NCBI GenBank assembly: GCA_044225555.1 | Contig: JBGAIM010000018.1 | Span: 73,382-137,381 of the forward strand | Reading direction: 5' to 3' | From: Limisphaerales bacterium | GTDB lineage: Bacteria; Verrucomicrobiota; Verrucomicrobiia; Limisphaerales; JADLHS01 | DNA length: 64,000 nucleotides | In this document: in pieces, positions 32,319-36,152 of the stretch | How positions within the stretch are numbered: the stretch's first letter is position 1 | Layout: the number at the start of each line of letters is the position of its first letter | Notes under the pieces: generated by a model | Told to the model about the DNA's origin: nothing | Seen by the model: only the letters and a program-made list of their open reading frames with translations | The model's database searches: none | Program-made: the position numbers and the translations under genes

Positions 32319-32393
32319 GCGGTTGTGATTTAACAGCCAGAATACCTCCCCGCCACGGAGGACGTCCGGGTGCGATTCCCGGCAACCGCACCA
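32319..32393 (+). tRNA. tRNA-like gene, anticodon GCC (Gly-type), non-canonical G55 T-loop
   Basis: Acceptor GCGGTTG/CAACCGC. Anticodon (AC) stem CCTCC/GGAGG, loop CCGCCAC (C33). T arm CCGGG-TGCGATT-CCCGG. A73 plus encoded CCA. 75 nt. Folded by eye. Confidence 0.55.
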
Positions 32394-32402
32394 TTCCATT
32401 CT

Positions 32403-32554
32403 CGATTTATGATTTGCGATTTACGATTTGCTGTGCGAATCGAACAGGCTGCGCGTCAGCACGCGGCCGAGTCTCCAAAACTCAGCTTACTCCGGGCAGC
32501 ACGGAGGCAGCCTGCCAAATCATAAATCGGAAATCGGAAATCATAAATTCATTT
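32403..32554. repeat. Inverted repeat built from 7-nt periodic units (GATTTNN x4 / AAATCNN x5) bracketing tRNA-like 32446..32517
   Basis: Left arm 32403-32430 is cgatttatgatttgcgatttacgatttg. Right arm 32518-32554 is aaatcataaatcggaaatcggaaatcataaattcattt. The arms are imperfectly complementary. Confidence 0.6.
32446..32517 (+). tRNA. tRNA-like gene, anticodon CCA (Trp-type), mini D-arm, GGCAGCA T-loop
   Basis: Acceptor AGGCTGC/GCAGCCT (A1-T72). D hairpin GCGT-CAGC-ACGC. AC loop CTCCAAA. T arm CTCCG-GGCAGCA-CGGAG. G73 plus CCA. 72 nt. Confidence 0.55.
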
Positions 32555-32629
32555 GGGGTCGTGGCAGACAAGCAATGCACTTGCCCTGCAAGCAAGCTGA
32601 TGCGGGAGCGTTACCCGCCGACTCCACCA
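32555..32629 (+). tRNA. tRNA-like gene, anticodon TGC (Ala-type), AGCGTTA T-loop
   Basis: Acceptor GGGGTCG/CGACTCC with G3.T70 wobble. AC stem CTTGC/GCAAG, loop CCTGCAA (C33). T arm GCGGG-AGCGTTA-CCCGC. A73 plus CCA. 75 nt. Confidence 0.6.
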
Positions 32630-32637
32630 TTTCACTT

Positions 32638-32710
32638 TGCGGGGAGTATGAGATTCAGGCGAGCCTCATAAGCTCTGCCTTCGTGGGCGCAACTCCCACC
32701 CCCGCTACCA
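32638..32710 (+). tRNA. tRNA-like gene, anticodon CAT (Met-type, 1-72 mismatch)
   Basis: Acceptor TGCGGGG/CCCCGCT (positions 2-7 paired, T1xT72 mismatch). AC loop CTCATAA. T arm GTGGG-CGCAACT-CCCAC. A73 plus CCA. D region reduced (TGA-GAT-TCA). Confidence 0.5.
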
Positions 32711-32731
32711 CTACTTGCGTAGGGCCACAAA

Positions 32732-32821
32732 GGGAAGTGATCCAGTTGCCCGACTGTAAATCGGGTGTCGCAAAACAAAACTGGAAGTGACGAACTGGAG
32801 CGTTACCAGCACTTCCCACCA
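32732..32821 (+). tRNA. tRNA-like gene, anticodon GTA (Tyr-type), long extra region
   Basis: Acceptor GGGAAGT/ACTTCCC. AC stem CCCGA/TCGGG, loop CTGTAAA. 28-nt extra region in which CTGGA can pair with TCCAG at positions 10-14. T arm ACTGG-AGCGTTA-CCAGC. A73 plus CCA. 90 nt. Confidence 0.5.
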
Positions 32822-32844
32822 GCCTTAGCAAGGCATGCCATCAT

Positions 32845-32919
32845 GCTCTCGTAGCTGAATAGAAAAGCAACCCGTTGTCTGCGGGAAGAGTGTGAGTGCA
32901 AGTCTCACCGGGAGCGCCA
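32845..32919 (+). tRNA. tRNA-like gene, anticodon GTC (Asp-type), G55 T-loop
   Basis: Acceptor GCTCTCG/CGGGAGC. D arm GCT-GAATAGAAA-AGC. AC stem CCCG/CGGG, loop TTGTCTG (pyrimidine at 37, atypical). T arm GTGAG-TGCAAGT-CTCAC. G73 plus CCA. 75 nt. Confidence 0.5.
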
Positions 32920-33013
32920 ATTTAAAATCTCACCGCGCCGCCGTGTCCCAAGGTTTTCGGCAGCGCGATTCTCCACTCCGACGTTCGATTCAATCGTTCG
33001 GCGTCCATTTCAT

Positions 33014-33152
33014 CGGAGCGTAGCTCAGTCTTTGGAGCGCGCGGCTTGGGCCCGCGAGGTCGCAGGTGATTACAATTCGCGATAGCGAACAGATCAATTT
33101 GGGGAACCCATCTTGTAAGGCTTGGGAAGCCCAAATCCTGCCGTTCCGACCA
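33014..33152 (+). tRNA. tRNA-like gene, anticodon TGG (Pro-type), with a 63-nt insertion inside the T-loop
   Basis: Acceptor CGGAGCG/CGTTCCG (C1-G72). D arm GCTC-AGTCTTTG-GAGC. AC stem CGCGG/CCGCG, loop CTTGGGC. T stem GCAGG(33062-66)/CCTGC(33137-41) with loop TG^CAAAT interrupted by 33069-33131. A73 plus CCA. Confidence 0.5.
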
Positions 33153-33162
33153 TTTTCAAAAC

Positions 33163-33239
33163 GCTGCCGTGGCCGAATCATTCAGGCATCCGTCTTCTAA
33201 GCGGACTTCATGCAGGTGGAAATCCTGCCGGCAGCGCCA
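33163..33239 (+). tRNA. tRNA-like gene, anticodon TCT (Arg-type)
   Basis: Acceptor GCTGCCG/CGGCAGC. D arm GCC-GAATCATTCA-GGC. AC stem TCCGT/GCGGA, loop CTTCTAA. T arm GCAGG-TGGAAAT-CCTGC. G73 plus CCA. 77 nt. Confidence 0.6.
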
Positions 33240-33243
33240 ATCT

Positions 33244-33337
33244 GTTGGTTAAAAGTTGAAGGTTACAAGTTGCAGGTTTAATTGCGCGCGCGCAGATGCG
33301 TTCCAACCTGCAACCTTCAACCGACAACTTGCAACCC
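33244..33337. repeat. Inverted repeat built from 7-nt periodic units (GTTGNAG / CTNCAAC type)
   Basis: Left arm gttggttaaaagttgaaggttacaagttgcaggtt. Right arm aacctgcaaccttcaaccgacaacttgcaaccc. GC-rich central loop taattgcgcgcgcgcagatgcgttcc. Confidence 0.6.
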
Positions 33338-33343
33338 TCGAAA

Positions 33344-33418
33344 TGCCAGGTGGTGTCAAAGTAGCACGGCGGCCTGTTAAGCCGTTCGGTGTTGGTGCGA
33401 GTCCAACCCTGGCAGCCA
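33344..33418 (+). tRNA. tRNA-like gene, anticodon GTT (Asn-type)
   Basis: Acceptor TGCCAGG/CCTGGCA (T1-A72). D arm GTG-TCAAAGTAG-CAC. AC stem GCGGC/GCCGT, loop CTGTTAA. T arm GTTGG-TGCGAGT-CCAAC. G73 plus CCA. 75 nt. Confidence 0.65.
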
Positions 33419-33424
33419 ATTTTA

Positions 33425-33518
33425 TTTTCGATCTACGAATGACGATTTACGAAACGCTTGGAGATTTGCCACTACCAGTCAGCGCGTAAATCCTAAATCC
33501 AAAATCGCAAATCTCGCG
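33425..33518. repeat. Inverted repeat built from 7-nt periodic units (CGATTTA type)
   Basis: Left arm ttttcgatctacgaatgacgatttacgaaacgc. Right arm gcgcgtaaatcctaaatccaaaatcgcaaatctcgcg. The arms are imperfectly complementary. Confidence 0.5.
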
Positions 33519-33607
33519 GAAGGCAGGCAGATATAAGCTGGCTGCACCTGTCTCGAAAACAGGTTCCGTTTCCACGGAGGTCGGAGCATTACCGACGCCT
33601 TCCGCCA
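33518..33607 (+). tRNA. tRNA-like gene, anticodon CGA (Ser-type, class II variable arm)
   Basis: Acceptor GGAAGGC/GCCTTCC. D arm GCAG-ATATAAGCTGG-CTGC. AC stem CCTGT/ACAGG, loop CTCGAAA. Variable arm TCCG-TTTCCA-CGGA. T arm GTCGG-AGCATTA-CCGAC. G73 plus CCA. 90 nt. Confidence 0.65.
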
Positions 33608-33624
33608 AATTCTTTAACAAGCAT

Positions 33625-33698
33625 TGTCCCGTAGCTCAAAAGCAGAGCGCTCGCCTGATAAGCGAGAGACCGCGGAGCGTCACCGCGCGGGACAACCA
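33625..33698 (+). tRNA. tRNA-like gene, anticodon GAT (Ile-type)
   Basis: Acceptor TGTCCCG/CGGGACA. D arm GCTC-AAAAGCA-GAGC. AC stem CTCGC/GCGAG, loop CTGATAA. T arm CGCGG-AGCGTCA-CCGCG. A73 plus CCA. 74 nt. Confidence 0.65.
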
Positions 33699-33731
33699 AT
33701 TTCCGCACAGGTAAAGGCCGTGCGCCAGCAC

Positions 33732-33806
33732 CCCCGAATAGCTGAGACAGATTAGCGTCTCGTTGAAGCCGAGGAGACGTTGGTGCGAAACCAACTTCGG
33801 GGACCA
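33732..33806 (+). tRNA. tRNA-like gene, anticodon GAA (Phe-type)
   Basis: Acceptor CCCCGAA/TTCGGGG. D arm GCT-GAGACAGATT-AGC. AC stem TCTCG/CGAGG, loop TTGAAGC. T arm GTTGG-TGCGAAA-CCAAC. A73 plus CCA. 75 nt. Confidence 0.6.
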
Positions 33807-33812
33807 ATTTCA

Positions 33813-33890
33813 GTCCGTGAATGCAAAGCAGCTCGCGCGTCCAGTCCTTCAAGCTGGTCCTAGCCGGTGCGAGTCCGGCCACGGATGCCA
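33813..33890 (+). tRNA. tRNA-like gene, anticodon TTC (Glu-type)
   Basis: Acceptor GTCCGTG/CACGGAT (G1.T72). AC stem CCAGT/GCTGG, loop CCTTCAA (C33). T arm GCCGG-TGCGAGT-CCGGC. G73 plus CCA. D region poorly defined. 78 nt. Confidence 0.5.
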
Positions 33891-33910
33891 ATGCTGGCTC
33901 AAGGCCAATT

Positions 33911-33988
33911 GCTCTCAAGGTGTAATTAGTTCTGCACGCCGCTCTGCGAAGGCGGAGGTTCGTGGTGCAAATCCACGTGAGAGCACCA
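33911..33988 (+). tRNA. tRNA-like gene, anticodon GCG (Arg-type)
   Basis: Acceptor GCTCTCA/TGAGAGC. D arm GTG-TAATTAGTTCTG-CAC. AC stem CCGCT/GGCGG, loop CTGCGAA. T arm CGTGG-TGCAAAT-CCACG. A73 plus CCA. 78 nt. Confidence 0.6.
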
Positions 33989-33992
33989 TTTT

Positions 33993-34080
33993 GATCTACG
34001 ATTTCAGATTTACGATTGCCGATTTTCGCGGGCCCGATAGCGCGGCCCATTCGTAAATCGTAAATCAACAATCGTAAATT
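33993..34080. repeat. Inverted repeat built from 7-nt periodic units (ACGATTT / AAATCGT type)
   Basis: Left arm gatctacgatttcagatttacgattgccgattttcgcgggcc. Right arm gcgcggcccattcgtaaatcgtaaatcaacaatcgtaaatt. This repeat generates the spurious IYDLR-type ORFs in the track. Confidence 0.55.
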
Positions 34081-34085
34081 CCGTT

Positions 34086-34161
34086 GCCCCCGTGCCTCAG
34101 CAGCTACAGGGCGGGTTTCGTAAACCCGTATTCGTCGGTGCGAGTCCGACCCGGGGCTCCA
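34086..34161 (+). tRNA. tRNA-like gene, anticodon CGT (Thr-type)
   Basis: Acceptor GCCCCCG/CCGGGGC (one C.C mismatch). D arm CCT-CAGCAGCTAC-AGG. AC stem CGGGT/ACCCG, loop TTCGTAA. T arm GTCGG-TGCGAGT-CCGAC. T73 plus CCA. 76 nt. Confidence 0.6.
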
Positions 34162-34255: not shown

Positions 34256-35320
34256 CTACTTCTTCGGCCGCCATTGACTGAAAGTGCGGCCGCTTCCGGC
34301 CGACGCGGAGAAGTCATCCGGCCGCGGCCCGCCGGGAGCGCCCATACAGAAACAGGCTTCGTCGCCGTCCCATTTGAACAACCCAAGCTGGATCGCACCC
34401 GGGCAGGCAGCCGCAATGCTGTAATAATCCACCTGCATCGGCTCCATGCTCTCGTTGATCCTGACCAATGCGTGGATGATGGTCTGTCCGCCGACTGTGA
34501 TTTTCACCTCGTTGCCAGACGCACTGCGGCGCGCCGTCCACAGCAGCATTTTGGGGAGTTCTTGGCCGTCGCGATTGATTGTCACCGCGCCCCACTCACC
34601 TTGAAGTTTTGTCAGCGTCGGCGACGGCATGAATGCGAATGCATCTTTGGATGGCGAACCCGGTGGTGCGACGCTGGCGGGTGGCGTTCCCCCGGTGACA
34701 TTGTCCGGACGGGCCATGGAAGTCCGCTTCAGCGTCTCGAAGGCATGGCCGCTTCCAGGGCTAGAGCTGAACTTGGCAGGTCGCGGTTTGCCATTCAGGT
34801 CGAGGCAGATCTCAAGAACGTCGCCGTTGAGCCGGAAAATGCCGTAGTTCCAATTCCCGGCTTCTGGGCCGGCGACGAATTCAATGTCGATTTCATGTGG
34901 CTGAGCCTCGACGTTGATATTGAAGATGCCTTCGTAATTCGCCTCGGGCGATTCGGTGCGAAACCGGTCGCCGTCAATTAACAGGCGGGACGCTTGCATC
35001 GCGGCTGCCGGCATGACACTGCCCTCGACTTCCAAACGCGCGAAGGCCCATGTCCCTTCGAGCGAGCGCAGTTGCTCCACGTGGCGCGCCAGATGAGGCC
35101 AACTGGCGAAACTGCTTTCACGCGCGATGGCGGATTGAGCATCGGCCAGGCGGAATCGCGTATTGAGCACTTCGGTTTCGCTCAGGCGTTTGGCTGCGGG
35201 CAGGTGTTTGAGGATGGTGGCGACTGCTTTTGGGTCGCGCGCGTCGAGCCCGGCCAGGAGTTTCTTGGCCTGACGCCGAAGATGGTCCAGGTTCGGTCGG
35301 GCCGGTAGTTGCTTTTCCAT
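34256..35320 (-). CDS. Tandem TIGR03067-domain protein
   Basis: Start trimmed to MEKQLPARPNLDHLRRQAKKLL (ATG 35320). Two copies of the pattern L.G.W......G......GIF.L.GD.L.IC......RP..F. The track ORF's 98-aa upstream extension overlaps RNA genes and is rejected. Confidence 0.7.
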   Translation of the reverse strand: MEKQLPARPNLDHLRRQAKKLLAGLDARDPKAVATILKHLPAAKRLSETEVLNTRFRLADAQSAIARESSFASWPHLARHVEQLRSLEGTWAFARLEVEGSVMPAAAMQASRLLIDGDRFRTESPEANYEGIFNINVEAQPHEIDIEFVAGPEAGNWNYGIFRLNGDVLEICLDLNGKPRPAKFSSSPGSGHAFETLKRTSMARPDNVTGGTPPASVAPPGSPSKDAFAFMPSPTLTKLQGEWGAVTINRDGQELPKMLLWTARRSASGNEVKITVGGQTIIHALVRINESMEPMQVDYYSIAAACPGAIQLGLFKWDGDEACFCMGAPGGPRPDDFSASAGSGRTFSQWRPKK

Positions 35321-35502
35321 AATGTTCTCCGCGGTAATGCCTGGATCCGCAAACAGGCGGCACGAAGAACGTGCGGTTGTTGTTCTGTTGGATTTGAAGT
35401 CGGGTTGAACCCTTTCCGCGGATCCGGTGGCTTGCTTCGAGCCGTGCCGAAATCCTACGAAAGCCGCGGTGGGAGGCCAGAGAATTTTATGCAAACCTGA
35501 TT

Positions 35503-35577
35503 CAGGATCGTGGTGTAATAGCAGCATCTTCGCCCGTGAAGCGAACGGTCCGGGTGCAAATCCCGGCTTCCTGACCA
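35503..35577 (+). tRNA. tRNA-like gene, anticodon GTG (His-type)
   Basis: Acceptor CAGGATC/CTTCCTG (5 bp plus 2 mismatches). D arm GGTG-TAATAGCAG-CATC. AC stem TTCGC/GCGAA, loop CCGTGAA (C33). T arm CCGGG-TGCAAAT-CCCGG. A73 plus CCA. 75 nt. Confidence 0.5.
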
Positions 35578-35583
35578 TTTTTC

Positions 35584-35733
35584 GATGGGCCGCTCGTCGT
35601 GGATTATCGCTCAACCAATCGAAACCGAATGCGGATGTAGTTCAACGGCGATAGAACACCCGGACGCGAGTCCGGGAGATGCAGATTCGAGACCTGCCTT
35701 CCGGTTTCTAAGCCACCGCACTTCTTGCCCATC
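35584..35733 (+). ncRNA. Y RNA-like module 1 (YrlA-like: Ro-binding stem plus internal tRNA-like domain)
   Basis: Closing helix 5' GATGGG-C-CG (35584-92) / 3' CTTG-CCCATC (35724-33) with bulged C. Followed by GGATTATC. Internal D arm GTTC-AACGGCGATA-GAAC. Anticodon-position stem CCCGGAC-GCGA-GTCCGGG (GNRA cap). T arm GCAGA-TTCGAGA-CCTGC. Helix GAAACCG/CGGTTTC. Confidence 0.6.
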
Positions 35734-35817
35734 TGAATCTGCTGTCGCAGAAAGATTTTTTGCGACGCAAACAACATCCGATCGTTGCGACGCGAAATGT
35801 CGTGTTCGCAACAGGAC

Positions 35818-35893
35818 CGCCTCGTAGTTCAACTGCGTTAGAACACCCGAAGAAATTCGGGAGACATGGGTTCGATTCCCATCGAGTGCGCCA
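35818..35893 (+). ncRNA. Anticodon-less tRNA-sized RNA (tRNA mimic with GAAA-capped anticodon stem and encoded CCA)
   Basis: 76 nt. Acceptor CGCCTCG/CGAG(T)GCG. D arm GTTC-AACTGCGTTA-GAAC. Stem CCCGAA-GAAA-TTCGGG in place of the anticodon arm. Canonical T arm ATGGG-TTCGATT-CCCAT. 3' CCA. Its D arm is paralogous to that of module 1. Confidence 0.55.
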
Positions 35894-35898
35894 CTTTC

Positions 35899-36005
35899 GA
35901 CGGGCCGTTGAGTTTGGATTATCGGTGAAGTCCGAAAGGATGAGCGGGTTCAAATCCCGCCCCAGCCGCCAGATGGCTGGGTTTCCAACTCGCTCCTTGT
36001 CCGTC
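35899..36005 (+). ncRNA. Y RNA-like module 2
   Basis: 5' GACGGG-C-CG / 3' CTTG-TCCGTC with bulged C. Upper stem GAGTTTGGA/TCCAACTC. GGATTATC. Internal TCC-GAAA-GGA hairpin. T arm GCGGG-TTCAAAT-CCCGC. Closed 7-bp hairpin CCCAGCC-GCCAGAT-GGCTGGG. No D arm. Confidence 0.5.
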
Positions 36006-36013
36006 ATCCATTT

Positions 36014-36136
36014 GGAATGGGCCGCTGCACTTTGGTTATCGAACTGGTAGCTCAATCGCGTCAGAGCGTCTCGCGCCAGCGGGAAGATTGGGTTCCAATC
36101 CCACCAGAAACATCGAAGTCGTTCCTTGCCCATTCC
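36014..36136 (+). ncRNA. Y RNA-like module 3 (YrlA-like)
   Basis: 5' GGAATGGG-C-CG / 3' CTTG-CCCATTCC (8 bp, bulged C, C-G and G.T). GGTTATC. tRNA-like core CTGG-TA-GCTC-AATCGCGTCA-GAGC-G-TCTCGC-GCCA-GCGGGA-AGAT-TGGG-TTCCAAT-CCCA-CCAG. Confidence 0.65.
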
Positions 36137-36152
36137 ACATTGCAGGCTTTTC

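What the first reader, a model, noticed from the sequence alone, without database searches (positions are those of the whole stretch)
35818..35893. Free-standing 76-nt tRNA mimic with no anticodon loop but a canonical T-loop and encoded CCA
The sequence is CGCCTCG-TA-GTTC-AACTGCGTTA-GAAC-A-CCCGAA-GAAA-TTCGGG-AGAC-ATGGG-TTCGATT-CCCAT-CGAG(T)GCG-CCA. It has exact tRNA length and arm order, but the anticodon loop is replaced by a 6-bp stem with a GAAA tetraloop. It therefore cannot decode. Its D arm is a close paralogue of the one inside Y-like module 1, yet it lacks a Ro-type closing stem. It could be a decoy or adaptor for a tRNA-binding enzyme (CCA-adding enzyme, RNase P, a modification enzyme or a nuclease), or a processed-out Y RNA domain.
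Basis: seen in the sequence. Interest (0 to 1): 0.65.

Follow-up and report, generated by a model that had tools for sequence, protein, structure and literature searches.

The report
Anticodon-less tRNA mimic among Y RNAs
A conserved small RNA gene with the shape of a tRNA, but a capped stem where the anticodon should be, sits between the Y RNA genes beside the Ro (Rsr) gene of soil and sludge Verrucomicrobia. It looks like a free copy of the tRNA-like part of those Y RNAs and cannot read codons.

Summary
Window 35818-35893 (+) folds as a 76-nt cloverleaf with a canonical T arm. A 6-bp stem capped by GAAA replaces the anticodon loop, and CCA is encoded.

It is not a chance match or a decayed tRNA. 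Orthologues occur in 26 Verrucomicrobial MAG loci and at least 120 metagenome contigs. Thirteen of 22 base pairs show compensatory changes, including all six anticodon-stem pairs. The cap varies (GNRA, UNCG, 3-6 nt) and no anticodon is conserved.

The element sits in a co-transcribed array: tRNA array, Y RNA, this element, Y RNAs, then rsr. It is nearly always 5 nt upstream of the next Y RNA, and its CCA-NUUU 3' context matches the array's real tRNAs. Its D arm and capped anticodon stem are paralogous to tRNA-like domains inside neighbouring Y RNAs, but it has no Ro-binding stem. It is a lineage-specific insertion.

Two caveats. CCA is conserved in only 56 of 99 copies, and the outermost acceptor pairs are often unpaired.

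Best reading: a Ro-stem-less copy of the Y RNA tRNA-like domain, excised like a tRNA, acting as a non-decoding mimic or decoy. A purely cis processing role is a close rival. No discrete 76-nt species could be tested. I rate it a new variant of a known kind.

The parts
35818..35893 (+). The tRNA-like element (TL). It has a 7-bp acceptor stem with one bulged U (35887), a D arm, a 6-bp stem capped by GAAA in place of the anticodon arm, a 4-nt variable region, a canonical T arm and an encoded CCA.
   Evidence: Conservation and covariation.
35846..35861 (+). Capped helix replacing the anticodon arm (CCCGAA-GAAA-TTCGGG).
   Evidence: All six pairs have compensatory changes and 95.6% of cells are paired. 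Among 99 copies the cap is GNRA in 14, UNCG in 11, a UCA triloop in 13, and 7 nt in only 4.
35894..35898 (+). U-rich 5-nt spacer (CUUUC) between the CCA and the 5' strand of the next Y RNA module. Presumed endonuclease site.
   Evidence: The spacing is fixed in 81 of 99 copies. All real tRNAs of the array show the same CCA + N + UUU context.
35776..35817 (+). Long hairpin B, directly upstream of the element.
   Evidence: Present in 'class ii' loci, with covariation such as TCCGCGA/TCGCGGA versus TCTGCAA/TTGCAGA.
35738..35761 (+). Hairpin A followed by a T run (terminator-like in this window only).
   Evidence: Homologues have the hairpin without the T run. RNA contigs read through it.
35584..35733 (+). 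Y RNA module 1 ('YT' type). It has a Ro-type stem and an unpermuted tRNA-like domain (35631-35709) with a GCGA-capped anticodon stem. This is the closest paralogue of the element.
   Evidence: Rfam tRNA 33.4 bits. Model R1 scores 53.8 bits. Sequence identity.
35503..35577 (+). tRNA-His(GUG)-like unit ending in CCA-UUUUUC immediately before Y module 1. This is the same tRNA-then-Y-RNA arrangement as the element with module 2.
   Evidence: Rfam tRNA 34.4 bits. Orthologues are called tRNA-His by ARAGORN. 3' context.
35899..36005 (+). Y RNA module 2: Ro-type stem, small GAAA hairpin, T arm and closed acceptor-like hairpin.
36014..36136 (+). Y RNA module 3, with an unpermuted tRNA-like domain (36041-36115) that has the same AACYGCG-type D loop.
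36154..36397 (+). Two YrlA-like (circularly permuted tRNA-like) Y RNA modules, at 36154-36287 and 36296-36397.
   Evidence: Rfam YrlA 38.7 and 34.2 bits, both below the gathering score of 69.
36723..36799 (+). Minimal Y RNA just upstream of rsr.
   Evidence: Rfam Y_RNA 19.9 bits and sbRNA family 28.4 bits, both sub-threshold.
36853..38553 (+). rsr, the bacterial Ro60 orthologue.
   Evidence: Pfam TROVE 3e-47 and Ro60 vWA 3e-60. NCBIfam Rsr 2.5e-151 (504.7 bits, below that model's curated cut-off of 900). Start codon.
32319..34161 (+). Upstream half of the flanking tRNA array, with non-canonical T loops.
39341..41656 (+). Downstream half of the flanking tRNA array.

Best explanation
Identity (well supported). 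This is a real, selected, non-decoding tRNA-shaped RNA gene. It is one unit of a co-transcribed array (tRNAs, Y RNAs, then rsr) in Limisphaerales-type Verrucomicrobia. It is a paralogue of the unpermuted tRNA-like 'effector' domains inside the neighbouring Y RNAs (modules 1 and 3) and has no Ro-binding stem.

Mechanism (inferred).
1. The element is transcribed within the polycistronic tRNA/Y RNA precursor.
2. It is released the way the array's tRNAs are. RNase P cuts at the 5' side of the acceptor stem. An endonuclease cuts in the U-rich CCA-NUUU spacer and also creates the 5' end of the next Y RNA. The 3' end is then trimmed or repaired by the CCA-adding enzyme.
3. The free L-shaped RNA cannot decode. 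It presents the same conserved D-arm and T-arm elbow surface as the Y RNA tRNA-like domains, but without Rsr attached.
4. It therefore most likely binds the same, still unknown, tRNA-elbow-binding partner of the Y RNAs, as a Ro-free competitor or decoy that tunes the Rsr-Y RNA system.

Only the transcription in step 1 is shown, and it is shown at contig level only.
For: Structure:
- Cloverleaf with a capped stem instead of an anticodon loop.

Selection:
- Orthologues in 26 MAG loci and at least 120 metagenome contigs, scoring 81-103 bits against 50 bits or less for almost all true tRNAs (best 52 bits).
- Thirteen of 22 pairs show compensatory changes, with 0 of 500 shuffles as high.
- All six anticodon-stem pairs covary while the loop is free to vary.

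The pattern of constraint fits an elbow and core ligand rather than a pure RNase P signal. The anticodon stem, which RNase P does not need, is 95.6% paired. The two outermost acceptor pairs are paired in only 42% and 67% of sequences.

The D-stem, D-loop and T-stem sequences are nearly invariant in the 26 MAG loci, which were found without any sequence pattern. The same unexplained property was reported for YrlA and taken as a factor-binding site (bioRxiv 10.1101/312249).

Paralogy:
- 23 of 26 identical positions with the module 1 domain.
- Model scores of 49-63 bits on module 1-type and module 3-type domains.
- Those domains also have GNRA-capped anticodon stems.

Processing context:
- The 3' flank CCA + N + UUU is the same as for all 17 other tRNA units in the window.
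- A tRNA-His unit precedes Y module 1 in the same way.
- M. smegmatis YrlA is cut by RNase P and receives CCA in vivo (PMC4201824).

Transcription:
- Low-depth metatranscriptomes assemble only the array, not its flanks. One contig spans 35592-36005.
- Independent soil metatranscriptomes cover an orthologue together with its neighbours.

Independence from module 2:
- Module 2 has the same architecture with or without the element.
- Four intact copies have no Y module downstream.
Against: - No discrete ~76-nt RNA, no RNase P site and no binding partner has been observed. The RNA data are assembled contigs that only show long transcripts.
- The outer acceptor stem is poorly paired in the commonest sequence classes (AGT|C|GCG and ATT|A|GCG, 53 of 99 copies). 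A stable hairpin abuts it, which would make RNase P cleavage inefficient.
- CCA is absent from 43 of 99 copies.
- The element is missing from many close relatives that keep the same Y RNA array, so it is dispensable for the core Rsr/Y RNA function.
- The D-arm and T-loop invariance in the metagenome set is partly imposed by the search pattern.
Confidence: 0.42

Rival explanations
1. Purely cis-acting processing 'punctuation', as with MALAT1 and mascRNA. The tRNA-like fold only recruits RNase P and the 3' tRNA-processing enzymes. Their cuts define the 3' end of the upstream Y RNA and the 5' end of the downstream Y RNA. The released RNA is a by-product with no function in trans.
For: - The element is always between two Y modules, and 91 of 99 copies are followed by a Y 5' strand at a fixed distance.
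- In 'class i' loci it starts only 4-10 nt after the upstream Y RNA's 3' strand, with a U at position -1.
- Its 3' context is the same as for real array tRNAs.
- Long co-transcripts exist.
- There is a precedent for RNase P cutting a Y RNA tRNA-like domain (PMC4201824).
Against: - Relatives without the element separate the same two modules with just GAGUnUUUCC, so the element is not needed for processing.
- Selection is strongest on the anticodon stem and D arm, which RNase P does not need. It is weakest on the outer acceptor stem, which RNase P does need.
- Four intact copies lack a downstream Y module.
Confidence: 0.3
2. It is never separated from module 2. The mature RNA is a composite Y RNA whose 5' end carries a complete tRNA-like domain tethered to the Ro-binding stem by the 5-nt U-rich linker.
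For: - Fixed 5-nt linker to the module 2 stem.
- Module 2's own internal domain lacks a D arm.
- RNA contigs run across the junction.
Against: - The junction has the same CCA-NUUU signature at which 17 genuine tRNAs of the array must be cut.
- Module 2 is unchanged in loci that lack the element.
- Some copies have 33-43-nt spacers or no module 2 at all.
Confidence: 0.12
3. A chargeable or acceptor-end-directed mimic. It would be aminoacylated by an anticodon-independent synthetase for a non-ribosomal use, or it would act as a decoy for toxins that attack the tRNA acceptor end (TacT- or MenT-type enzymes).
For: - CCA or YCA follows the acceptor stem in 79 of 99 copies.
- One related locus carries a TacA/GNAT toxin-antitoxin pair inserted in the Y array.
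- L-array tRNAs have been proposed as sponges for tRNA-targeting toxins (PMC8421152).
Against: - The acceptor end is the least conserved part: the outer pairs are often unpaired, a bulge is conserved, there is no clear discriminator, and CCA is missing in 43% of copies.
- No known identity element such as G3:U70 is present.
Confidence: 0.07
4. A decaying tRNA pseudogene of the tRNA array that lost one or more nucleotides from its anticodon loop.
For: - It lies in a long tRNA array, and some members of such arrays are pseudogenes (PMC8421152).
- ARAGORN sometimes forces a tRNA call on orthologues, with random anticodons.
Against: - It is conserved over at least 83 distinct sequences, with compensatory changes in every helix.
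- The loop is repeatedly a stable GNRA or UNCG tetraloop.
- The T loop is canonical, whereas the array's tRNAs almost all have UGC- or AGC-type T loops.
- Its closest relatives are Y RNA domains, not array tRNAs.
Confidence: 0.02

Closest known systems
tRNA-like effector domain of bacterial Y RNAs: YrlA (Rfam RF02553; Chen et al. 2014, PMC4201824; structure in bioRxiv 10.1101/312249)
   Same: - D arm, T arm with a canonical T loop, and an L-shape core.
- No anticodon loop.
- Unexplained sequence conservation in the D and T stems.
- Encoded next to rsr.
- M. smegmatis YrlA can be cut by RNase P and receive CCA.
   Different: - YrlA is circularly permuted. Its acceptor stem is a closed hairpin and its 'anticodon stem' continues into the Ro-binding helix.
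- The element here has normal tRNA topology, open 5' and 3' ends, a capped anticodon stem and no Ro-binding helix.
- The Rfam YrlA model does not match it.
D. radiodurans Yrn1 and the unpermuted tRNA-like domains of this locus's own Y modules 1 and 3
   Same: - Normal arm order.
- Short 'anticodon arm' with a non-anticodon loop (Yrn1 has 5 bp plus a 6-nt loop; PMC4201824).
- Same AACYGCG-type D loop and GNRA cap as modules 1 and 3.
- 23 of 26 identical positions with module 1.
   Different: In those RNAs the short acceptor helix opens into the Ro-binding stem. Here it is closed off by 1-3 further pairs and followed by CCA or YCA.
mascRNA and the MEN-beta tRNA-like small RNA (released from MALAT1/NEAT1 by RNase P and RNase Z)
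   Same: - A tRNA-like fold with a shrunken anticodon loop.
- Embedded directly 3' of a non-coding RNA, so that excision would define the neighbouring RNA's end.
- The product cannot decode.
   Different: - Eukaryotic and unrelated in sequence.
- mascRNA's CCA is added after cleavage.
- Processing of the element here is not demonstrated.
Operonic tRNAs of long tRNA arrays ('L-arrays'; Santamaria-Gomez et al. 2021, PMC8421152)
   Same: - It is a unit of a long, dense tRNA array with an HNH endonuclease neighbour.
- It has the same CCA-NUUU 3' context as the array's tRNAs.
   Different: It has no anticodon. It also has a canonical T loop, whereas the array's tRNAs have UGC- or AGC-type T loops.
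tRNA-like domain of tmRNA and viral 3' tRNA-like structures
   Same: tRNA mimics that lack a true anticodon arm.
   Different: Those depend on a conserved CCA end and aminoacylation. Here the acceptor end is the least conserved part.

Membership tests
tRNA (Rfam RF00005; decoding tRNA) | Cloverleaf scoring above the family's gathering score | tested here: met
   39.4 bits against a gathering score of 29.
tRNA (Rfam RF00005; decoding tRNA) | 5-bp anticodon stem with a 7-nt loop, U33 and a conserved anticodon | tested here: not met
   The window has a 6-bp stem with a GAAA tetraloop, and ARAGORN makes no call. Among 99 homologues, 80 have loops of 3-6 nt and only 4 have 7-nt loops. Where ARAGORN forces a call, the 'anticodon' differs each time (tcc, aaa, cag, ttg, tta, tga).
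tRNA (Rfam RF00005; decoding tRNA) | 7-bp acceptor stem, discriminator base and CCA end | tested here: inconclusive
   The window has 7 pairs interrupted by a bulged U, with CCA directly after and no spare discriminator. Across the family, the outer three pairs are paired in 88%, 67% and 42% of sequences. CCA occurs in 56 of 99 copies.
tRNA (Rfam RF00005; decoding tRNA) | Elbow nucleotides: T loop UUCRANY, and G18 G19 in the D loop | tested here: inconclusive
   The T loop TTCGATT is canonical. The D loop is AACYGCGNNA, with a pyrimidine where G18 is expected.
Y RNA / YrlA (RF00019, RF02553, RF01053) | Ro-binding helix formed by the RNA's own 5' and 3' ends (GGGCCG...GGUUAUC paired with CUUGYCCAUC) | tested here: not met
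   The flanks are hairpin B on the 5' side and a 5-nt linker on the 3' side. The nearest Ro-type strands belong to complete neighbouring modules. No Y-family Rfam hit covers 35818-35893.
Y RNA / YrlA (RF00019, RF02553, RF01053) | tRNA-like domain with D and T arms, encoded next to rsr | tested here: met
Y RNA / YrlA (RF00019, RF02553, RF01053) | Circular permutation (closed acceptor hairpin), as in YrlA | tested here: not met
   The arm order is that of a normal tRNA, with open ends.
Y RNA / YrlA (RF00019, RF02553, RF01053) | Bound by Rsr in vivo | not testable with these tools
   Needs co-immunoprecipitation.
RNase P-released tRNA-like small RNA (mascRNA type) | Lies immediately 3' of a non-coding RNA whose 3' end its excision would define | tested here: inconclusive
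   Met in class i loci, with 4-10 nt between the Y 3' strand and the element. In the window and in class ii loci an 84-95-nt structured spacer intervenes.
RNase P-released tRNA-like small RNA (mascRNA type) | Cleavage by RNase P and by a 3' endonuclease, then CCA addition, giving a discrete small RNA | not testable with these tools
   Only assembled metatranscriptome contigs were available. They show read-through transcripts.
tRNA pseudogene | Neutral decay: no compensatory changes and no conservation of structure | tested here: not met
   Thirteen of 22 pairs show compensatory changes, 93.6% of cells are paired, and 0 of 500 shuffles are as high.

The most novel reading that the evidence does not exclude
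The element and the Y RNA tRNA-like domains are 'canonical-elbow' decoys in an integrated tRNA-protection island. The roughly 20 array tRNAs around rsr carry an altered elbow (G55-type T loops and D loops without GG). That would let them escape an elbow-recognising nuclease, toxin or quality-control factor. The anticodon-less mimic (free) and the Y RNAs (bound to Rsr/PNPase) would present the housekeeping-type elbow to capture or sense that factor. This would make the element a new class of free bacterial regulatory tRNA mimic acting in trans.
Probability: 0.12. Interest if true: 0.85.

Novelty: new variant of a known kind. Interest (0 to 1): 0.58.

Why it matters
Bacterial Y RNAs are known to carry tRNA-like domains, but the partner and purpose of those domains are still unknown. 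Here the same kind of domain exists as a separate gene with normal tRNA topology and open ends. It is conserved in a large uncultured clade.

That gives a natural 'minimal' version of the domain, with three uses:
- as bait for the missing partner;
- to test whether the domain works with or without Ro;
- to test whether tRNA-processing enzymes mature Y RNA operons.

The setting is also new. The element lies in an rsr gene embedded in a long tRNA array whose tRNAs have non-canonical elbows. This links Ro/Y RNA biology to the poorly understood stress-induced tRNA arrays.

Tried and rejected
- **Exact look-up of the Rsr protein.** Not on record. Relatives were found by pattern scan instead.
- **Alternative pairings proposed by RNAalifold.** It paired CCCGU of the element with ACGGG of module 2, and module 1's 3' strand with module 2's 5' strand. 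I set these aside. All Y-module strands are mutually complementary and invariant. The acceptor pairing has its own compensatory changes (CTCG/CGAG, CCTG/CAGG, CAC/GTG, GAC/GTC, CGC/GCG).
- **A pairing partner for the conserved 3' tail GCGYCA or the conserved single-stranded linker CARAACCGCR.** I looked by hand at the D loop, hairpin A and the 5' leader. I found only 3-bp matches and Y-with-Y correlations, and no Watson-Crick covariation.
- **The idea that the element supplies a D arm missing from module 2.** Rejected, because module 2 is the same in loci without the element.
- **A promoter between module 1 and the element.** No sigma-70-like site was found. The terminator-like hairpin at 35738-35761 is specific to this window, and RNA contigs read through it.
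- **Other RNA families.** Rfam in E-value mode over 35300-36800 gave nothing else for the element.
- **Phage origin.** No match in the viral contig collection.
- **Discrete-transcript test.** All RNA runs offered were stored as assembled contigs, so read ends and small RNAs could not be examined.
- **Neighbouring proteins.** Their domains (TIGR03067 domain, DUF1579, HNH, SEC-C) gave no direct clue to a partner.

Full report
**What is there**

- Rfam's tRNA model scores it at 39.4 bits (gathering score 29). It has to squeeze 6 nt into the 7-nt anticodon loop.
- ARAGORN does not call it.
- The minimum-free-energy fold is the cloverleaf with a GAAA tetraloop on a 6-bp stem (z = -2.45).

**Context**

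The window is a bacterial chromosome. It encodes a nitric-oxide reductase, a TetR regulator and an OmpA-family protein, among others. The organism is a Limisphaerales or Pedosphaera-type Verrucomicrobium. The best Rsr relatives are 91% identical and come from Verrucomicrobial MAGs.

The element lies in a dense non-coding array, all on the + strand:
- tRNA array, 32319-34161
- a tRNA-His-like unit, 35503-35577
- Y RNA module 1, 35584-35733
- a structured spacer
- the element
- Y RNA modules 2-5, 35899-36403
- a small SEC-C ORF
- a mini Y RNA, 36723-36799
- rsr (Ro60 orthologue; TROVE and vWA domains), 36853-38553
- a second tRNA array, 39341-41656
- an HNH endonuclease gene, 41781-42365

Modules 4 and 5 match Rfam YrlA below threshold. 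Modules 1 and 3 contain unpermuted tRNA-like domains.

**Is it more than chance or decay?**

A blastn search followed by a covariance model (R1) found the element in 26 of the 80 Rsr loci fetched from species-representative genomes.
- Orthologues score 81-97 bits. A few diverged copies, or copies carrying an insertion, score 63-69 bits.
- The tRNA-like domains inside Y modules score 49-63 bits.
- Genuine tRNAs almost all score 50 bits or less (best 52 bits).

A pattern scan found at least 120 metagenome contigs from soil, peat, rhizosphere and sludge. It found none in the viral collection.

On 83 distinct sequences, 93.6% of cells are paired. Thirteen of 22 pairs have changes on both sides, and 0 of 500 shuffles reach that. 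Slid controls give 32-56% paired.

There is a caveat. The metagenome pattern fixed most of the D arm and the T loop. Their invariance is therefore meaningful only in the 26 MAG loci, where it also holds. The acceptor stem, the anticodon stem, the 3' tail and the flanks were not constrained by the pattern.

**Anatomy across the family**

- *Anticodon arm.* It is a 6-7-bp helix in 79 of 99 copies, and all six pairs covary. The cap is GNRA in 14 copies, UNCG in 11, a UCA triloop in 13, and other loops of 3-6 nt in most of the rest. Only 4 copies have a 7-nt loop. Where ARAGORN forces a call, the 'anticodon' differs each time. The family therefore cannot decode.
- *Acceptor stem.* The inner four pairs are almost invariant (CCCG/CGGG), with compensatory CTCG/CGAG and CCTG/CAGG. 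A single bulged nucleotide follows on the 3' strand in nearly all copies. The three outer pairs are paired in 88%, 67% and 42% of sequences, with clear covariation in part of the family (CAC/GTG, GAC/GTC, CGC/GCG, CGC/GTG). They are poorly paired in the two commonest classes (AGT|C|GCG and ATT|A|GCG).
- *3' motif.* It is CCA in 56 copies, TCA in 23 and something else in 20.

The window copy is among the most tRNA-like members.

**Position and origin**

In 91 of 99 copies a Y-module 5' strand (GAYGGGYCG) follows, and in 81 of them at a fixed distance (CCA-NUUUN).

Upstream there are two arrangements:
- *Class i:* the 3' strand of the preceding Y RNA, 4-10 nt away.
- *Class ii:* an 84-95-nt structured spacer made of hairpin A, a conserved single-stranded CARAACCGCR motif, and a long covarying hairpin B that ends 3 nt before the inner acceptor stem. 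The window belongs to this class.

Close relatives without the element join the same two modules by CAUC-GAGUnUUUCC-GACGGG, and their module 2 has the same architecture. The element is therefore a lineage-specific insertion into a Y-Y spacer. It is not a required part of module 2.

Its D arm and the 5' half of its anticodon stem match the module 1 domain at 23 of 26 positions. Module 1-type and module 3-type domains share the AACYGCG D loop and the GNRA- or loop-capped short anticodon stem. The simplest origin is duplication of a Y RNA tRNA-like domain with loss of the Ro-binding stem.

**Expression**

Three deep sludge metatranscriptomes cover the whole region evenly, so DNA carry-over cannot be excluded there.

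Four shallow metatranscriptomes assemble only 35453-36343 and nothing in the flanking coding DNA, apart from one run's contigs within rsr beyond 36886. One contig runs from 35592 to 36005, that is, across module 1, the spacer, the element and module 2.

Independent soil metatranscriptomes cover an orthologue (L087:8315-8391) together with its upstream neighbours in single contigs.

So the element is transcribed as part of polycistronic RNA. Contigs cannot show whether a discrete ~76-nt product accumulates.

**How it most likely works**

Every tRNA unit in the window ends in CCA followed by (A/C/U)UUU, and so does the element. A tRNA-His unit precedes Y module 1 in just the way the element precedes module 2. 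Since the real tRNAs must be cut out at these sites, the element is probably cut out too. RNase P would act at the 5' side, and an endonuclease in the U-rich linker would also make the next Y RNA's 5' end. This step is inferred. The precedent is M. smegmatis YrlA, which is cleaved by RNase P and receives CCA (PMC4201824).

The pattern of selection argues that the product is more than a processing signal.
- The anticodon stem and D arm, which RNase P does not need, are the best-kept parts.
- The outer acceptor stem and CCA, which RNase P and acceptor-end enzymes do need, are the loosest parts.
- Sequence-level invariance of the D and T stems was also noted for YrlA and read as the footprint of an unknown factor (bioRxiv 10.1101/312249).

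I therefore favour a free, Ro-less copy of the Y RNA effector domain that competes for, or titrates, that factor. My confidence in the full mechanism is about 0.4. My confidence that it is a selected, non-decoding, Y-RNA-derived tRNA mimic is about 0.9.

The rivals are:
- a purely cis punctuation role, as with mascRNA (about 0.3);
- a 5' domain that stays attached to module 2 (about 0.12);
- an acceptor-end mimic or chargeable RNA (about 0.07);
- a pseudogene (about 0.02).

**Comparison with known systems**

It works like, and is probably derived from, the tRNA-like domains of bacterial Y RNAs. It fails the defining Y RNA test, because it has no Ro-binding helix of its own. It also differs from YrlA in topology, because it is not permuted.

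It passes Rfam's tRNA threshold but fails the anticodon-loop requirement.

Its placement and shrunken anticodon loop parallel mascRNA, but cleavage is untested.

The surrounding array fits the 'L-array' concept: a long tRNA array with an HNH neighbour and a proposed role in translational stress (PMC8421152).

Full-text searches found no description of a free-standing anticodon-less tRNA mimic in rsr loci.

**Verdict**

This is a new variant of a known kind, of moderate to good interest. It is mainly useful as a natural minimal tRNA-like Y RNA domain, and as an entry point to an unusual island that combines Ro, Y RNAs and a tRNA array.

Noticed in passing
window 32319-34161 and 39341-41656; loci L001-L062: The tRNAs flanking rsr form a long array with non-canonical elbows. 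Of about 615 ARAGORN tRNAs in Verrucomicrobial loci, the T loop starts UGC in 371, AGC in 78, UGG in 48, UGA in 44 and CGC in 31. It starts with the canonical UUC in only 16, and most of those are miscalls of the mimic or of Y domains. Their D loops lack GG. Non-array tRNAs in the same loci (L044:11194-11267, L059:4179-4254, L061:2113-2189) are canonical. Chloroflexia rsr loci have canonical arrays.
   Followed up: partly
window 41781-42365: An HNH endonuclease ORF lies at the end of the tRNA array, as reported for cyanobacterial 'L-arrays' (PMC8421152). This suggests that the whole tRNA/Y RNA/rsr block is an L-array-type island.
   Followed up: partly
window 36465-36647: A small SEC-C-motif ORF between the Y RNA array and rsr ends in ...CPCGSGRSF-stop. 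The +1 frame continues with KKCC, which completes the SEC-C zinc motif. This could be a frameshift, a sequencing error or a programmed +1 shift at UUU-UAA-G.
   Followed up: no
L067:3892-4032, L043:966-1106, L017:633-772: Three orthologues of the mimic carry a conserved insertion of about 63 nt just after GGGTTC of the T arm. The insertion contains its own hairpins. Rfam finds no match, and its nature is unknown.
   Followed up: partly
window 35734-35817; for example L036:2034-2119: A conserved structured spacer lies upstream of the mimic. It consists of hairpin A, a single-stranded CARAACCGCR motif and a long covarying hairpin B. No pairing partner for the motif was found, and its function is unknown.
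   Followed up: partly
window 35584-36799 and related loci: At least five architecturally different Y RNA types occur in tandem upstream of one rsr gene:
- Yrn1-like (Rfam Deinococcus_Y_RNA, 38 bits in L067);
- modules with unpermuted tRNA-like domains, in two kinds;
- a module with a T arm plus a closed acceptor hairpin;
- permuted YrlA-like modules;
- a minimal Y RNA.
The usual order is Y1, mimic, M2, (M3), YrlA-like, rsr. The window has a YT-type first module instead of Y1.
   Followed up: partly
L031:3237-4068: A TacA antitoxin and GNAT (TacT-like, aminoacyl-tRNA-acetylating type) toxin pair is inserted between Y RNA modules in one related locus.
   Followed up: partly
L009:4027-5286: In one relative the position of the mimic is occupied by an insertion of about 1.2 kb that encodes an alpha/beta-hydrolase (esterase) on the opposite strand.
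   Followed up: no
window 35503-35577: A tRNA-His(GUG)-like unit has two mismatches at the base of its acceptor stem. Rfam calls it (34.4 bits) but ARAGORN does not. Orthologues in other loci are called tRNA-His.
   Followed up: no
window 35453: One metatranscriptome contig (run X27) starts at 35453 with an adapter remnant. This may mark an RNA 5' end about 50 nt upstream of the tRNA-His-like unit. No sigma-70-like promoter was found there.
   Followed up: no
window 40871-40962: The tRNA-Ile(UAU) call is 92 nt long, so it carries an insertion (an intron or a long extra arm) relative to its neighbours.
   Followed up: no
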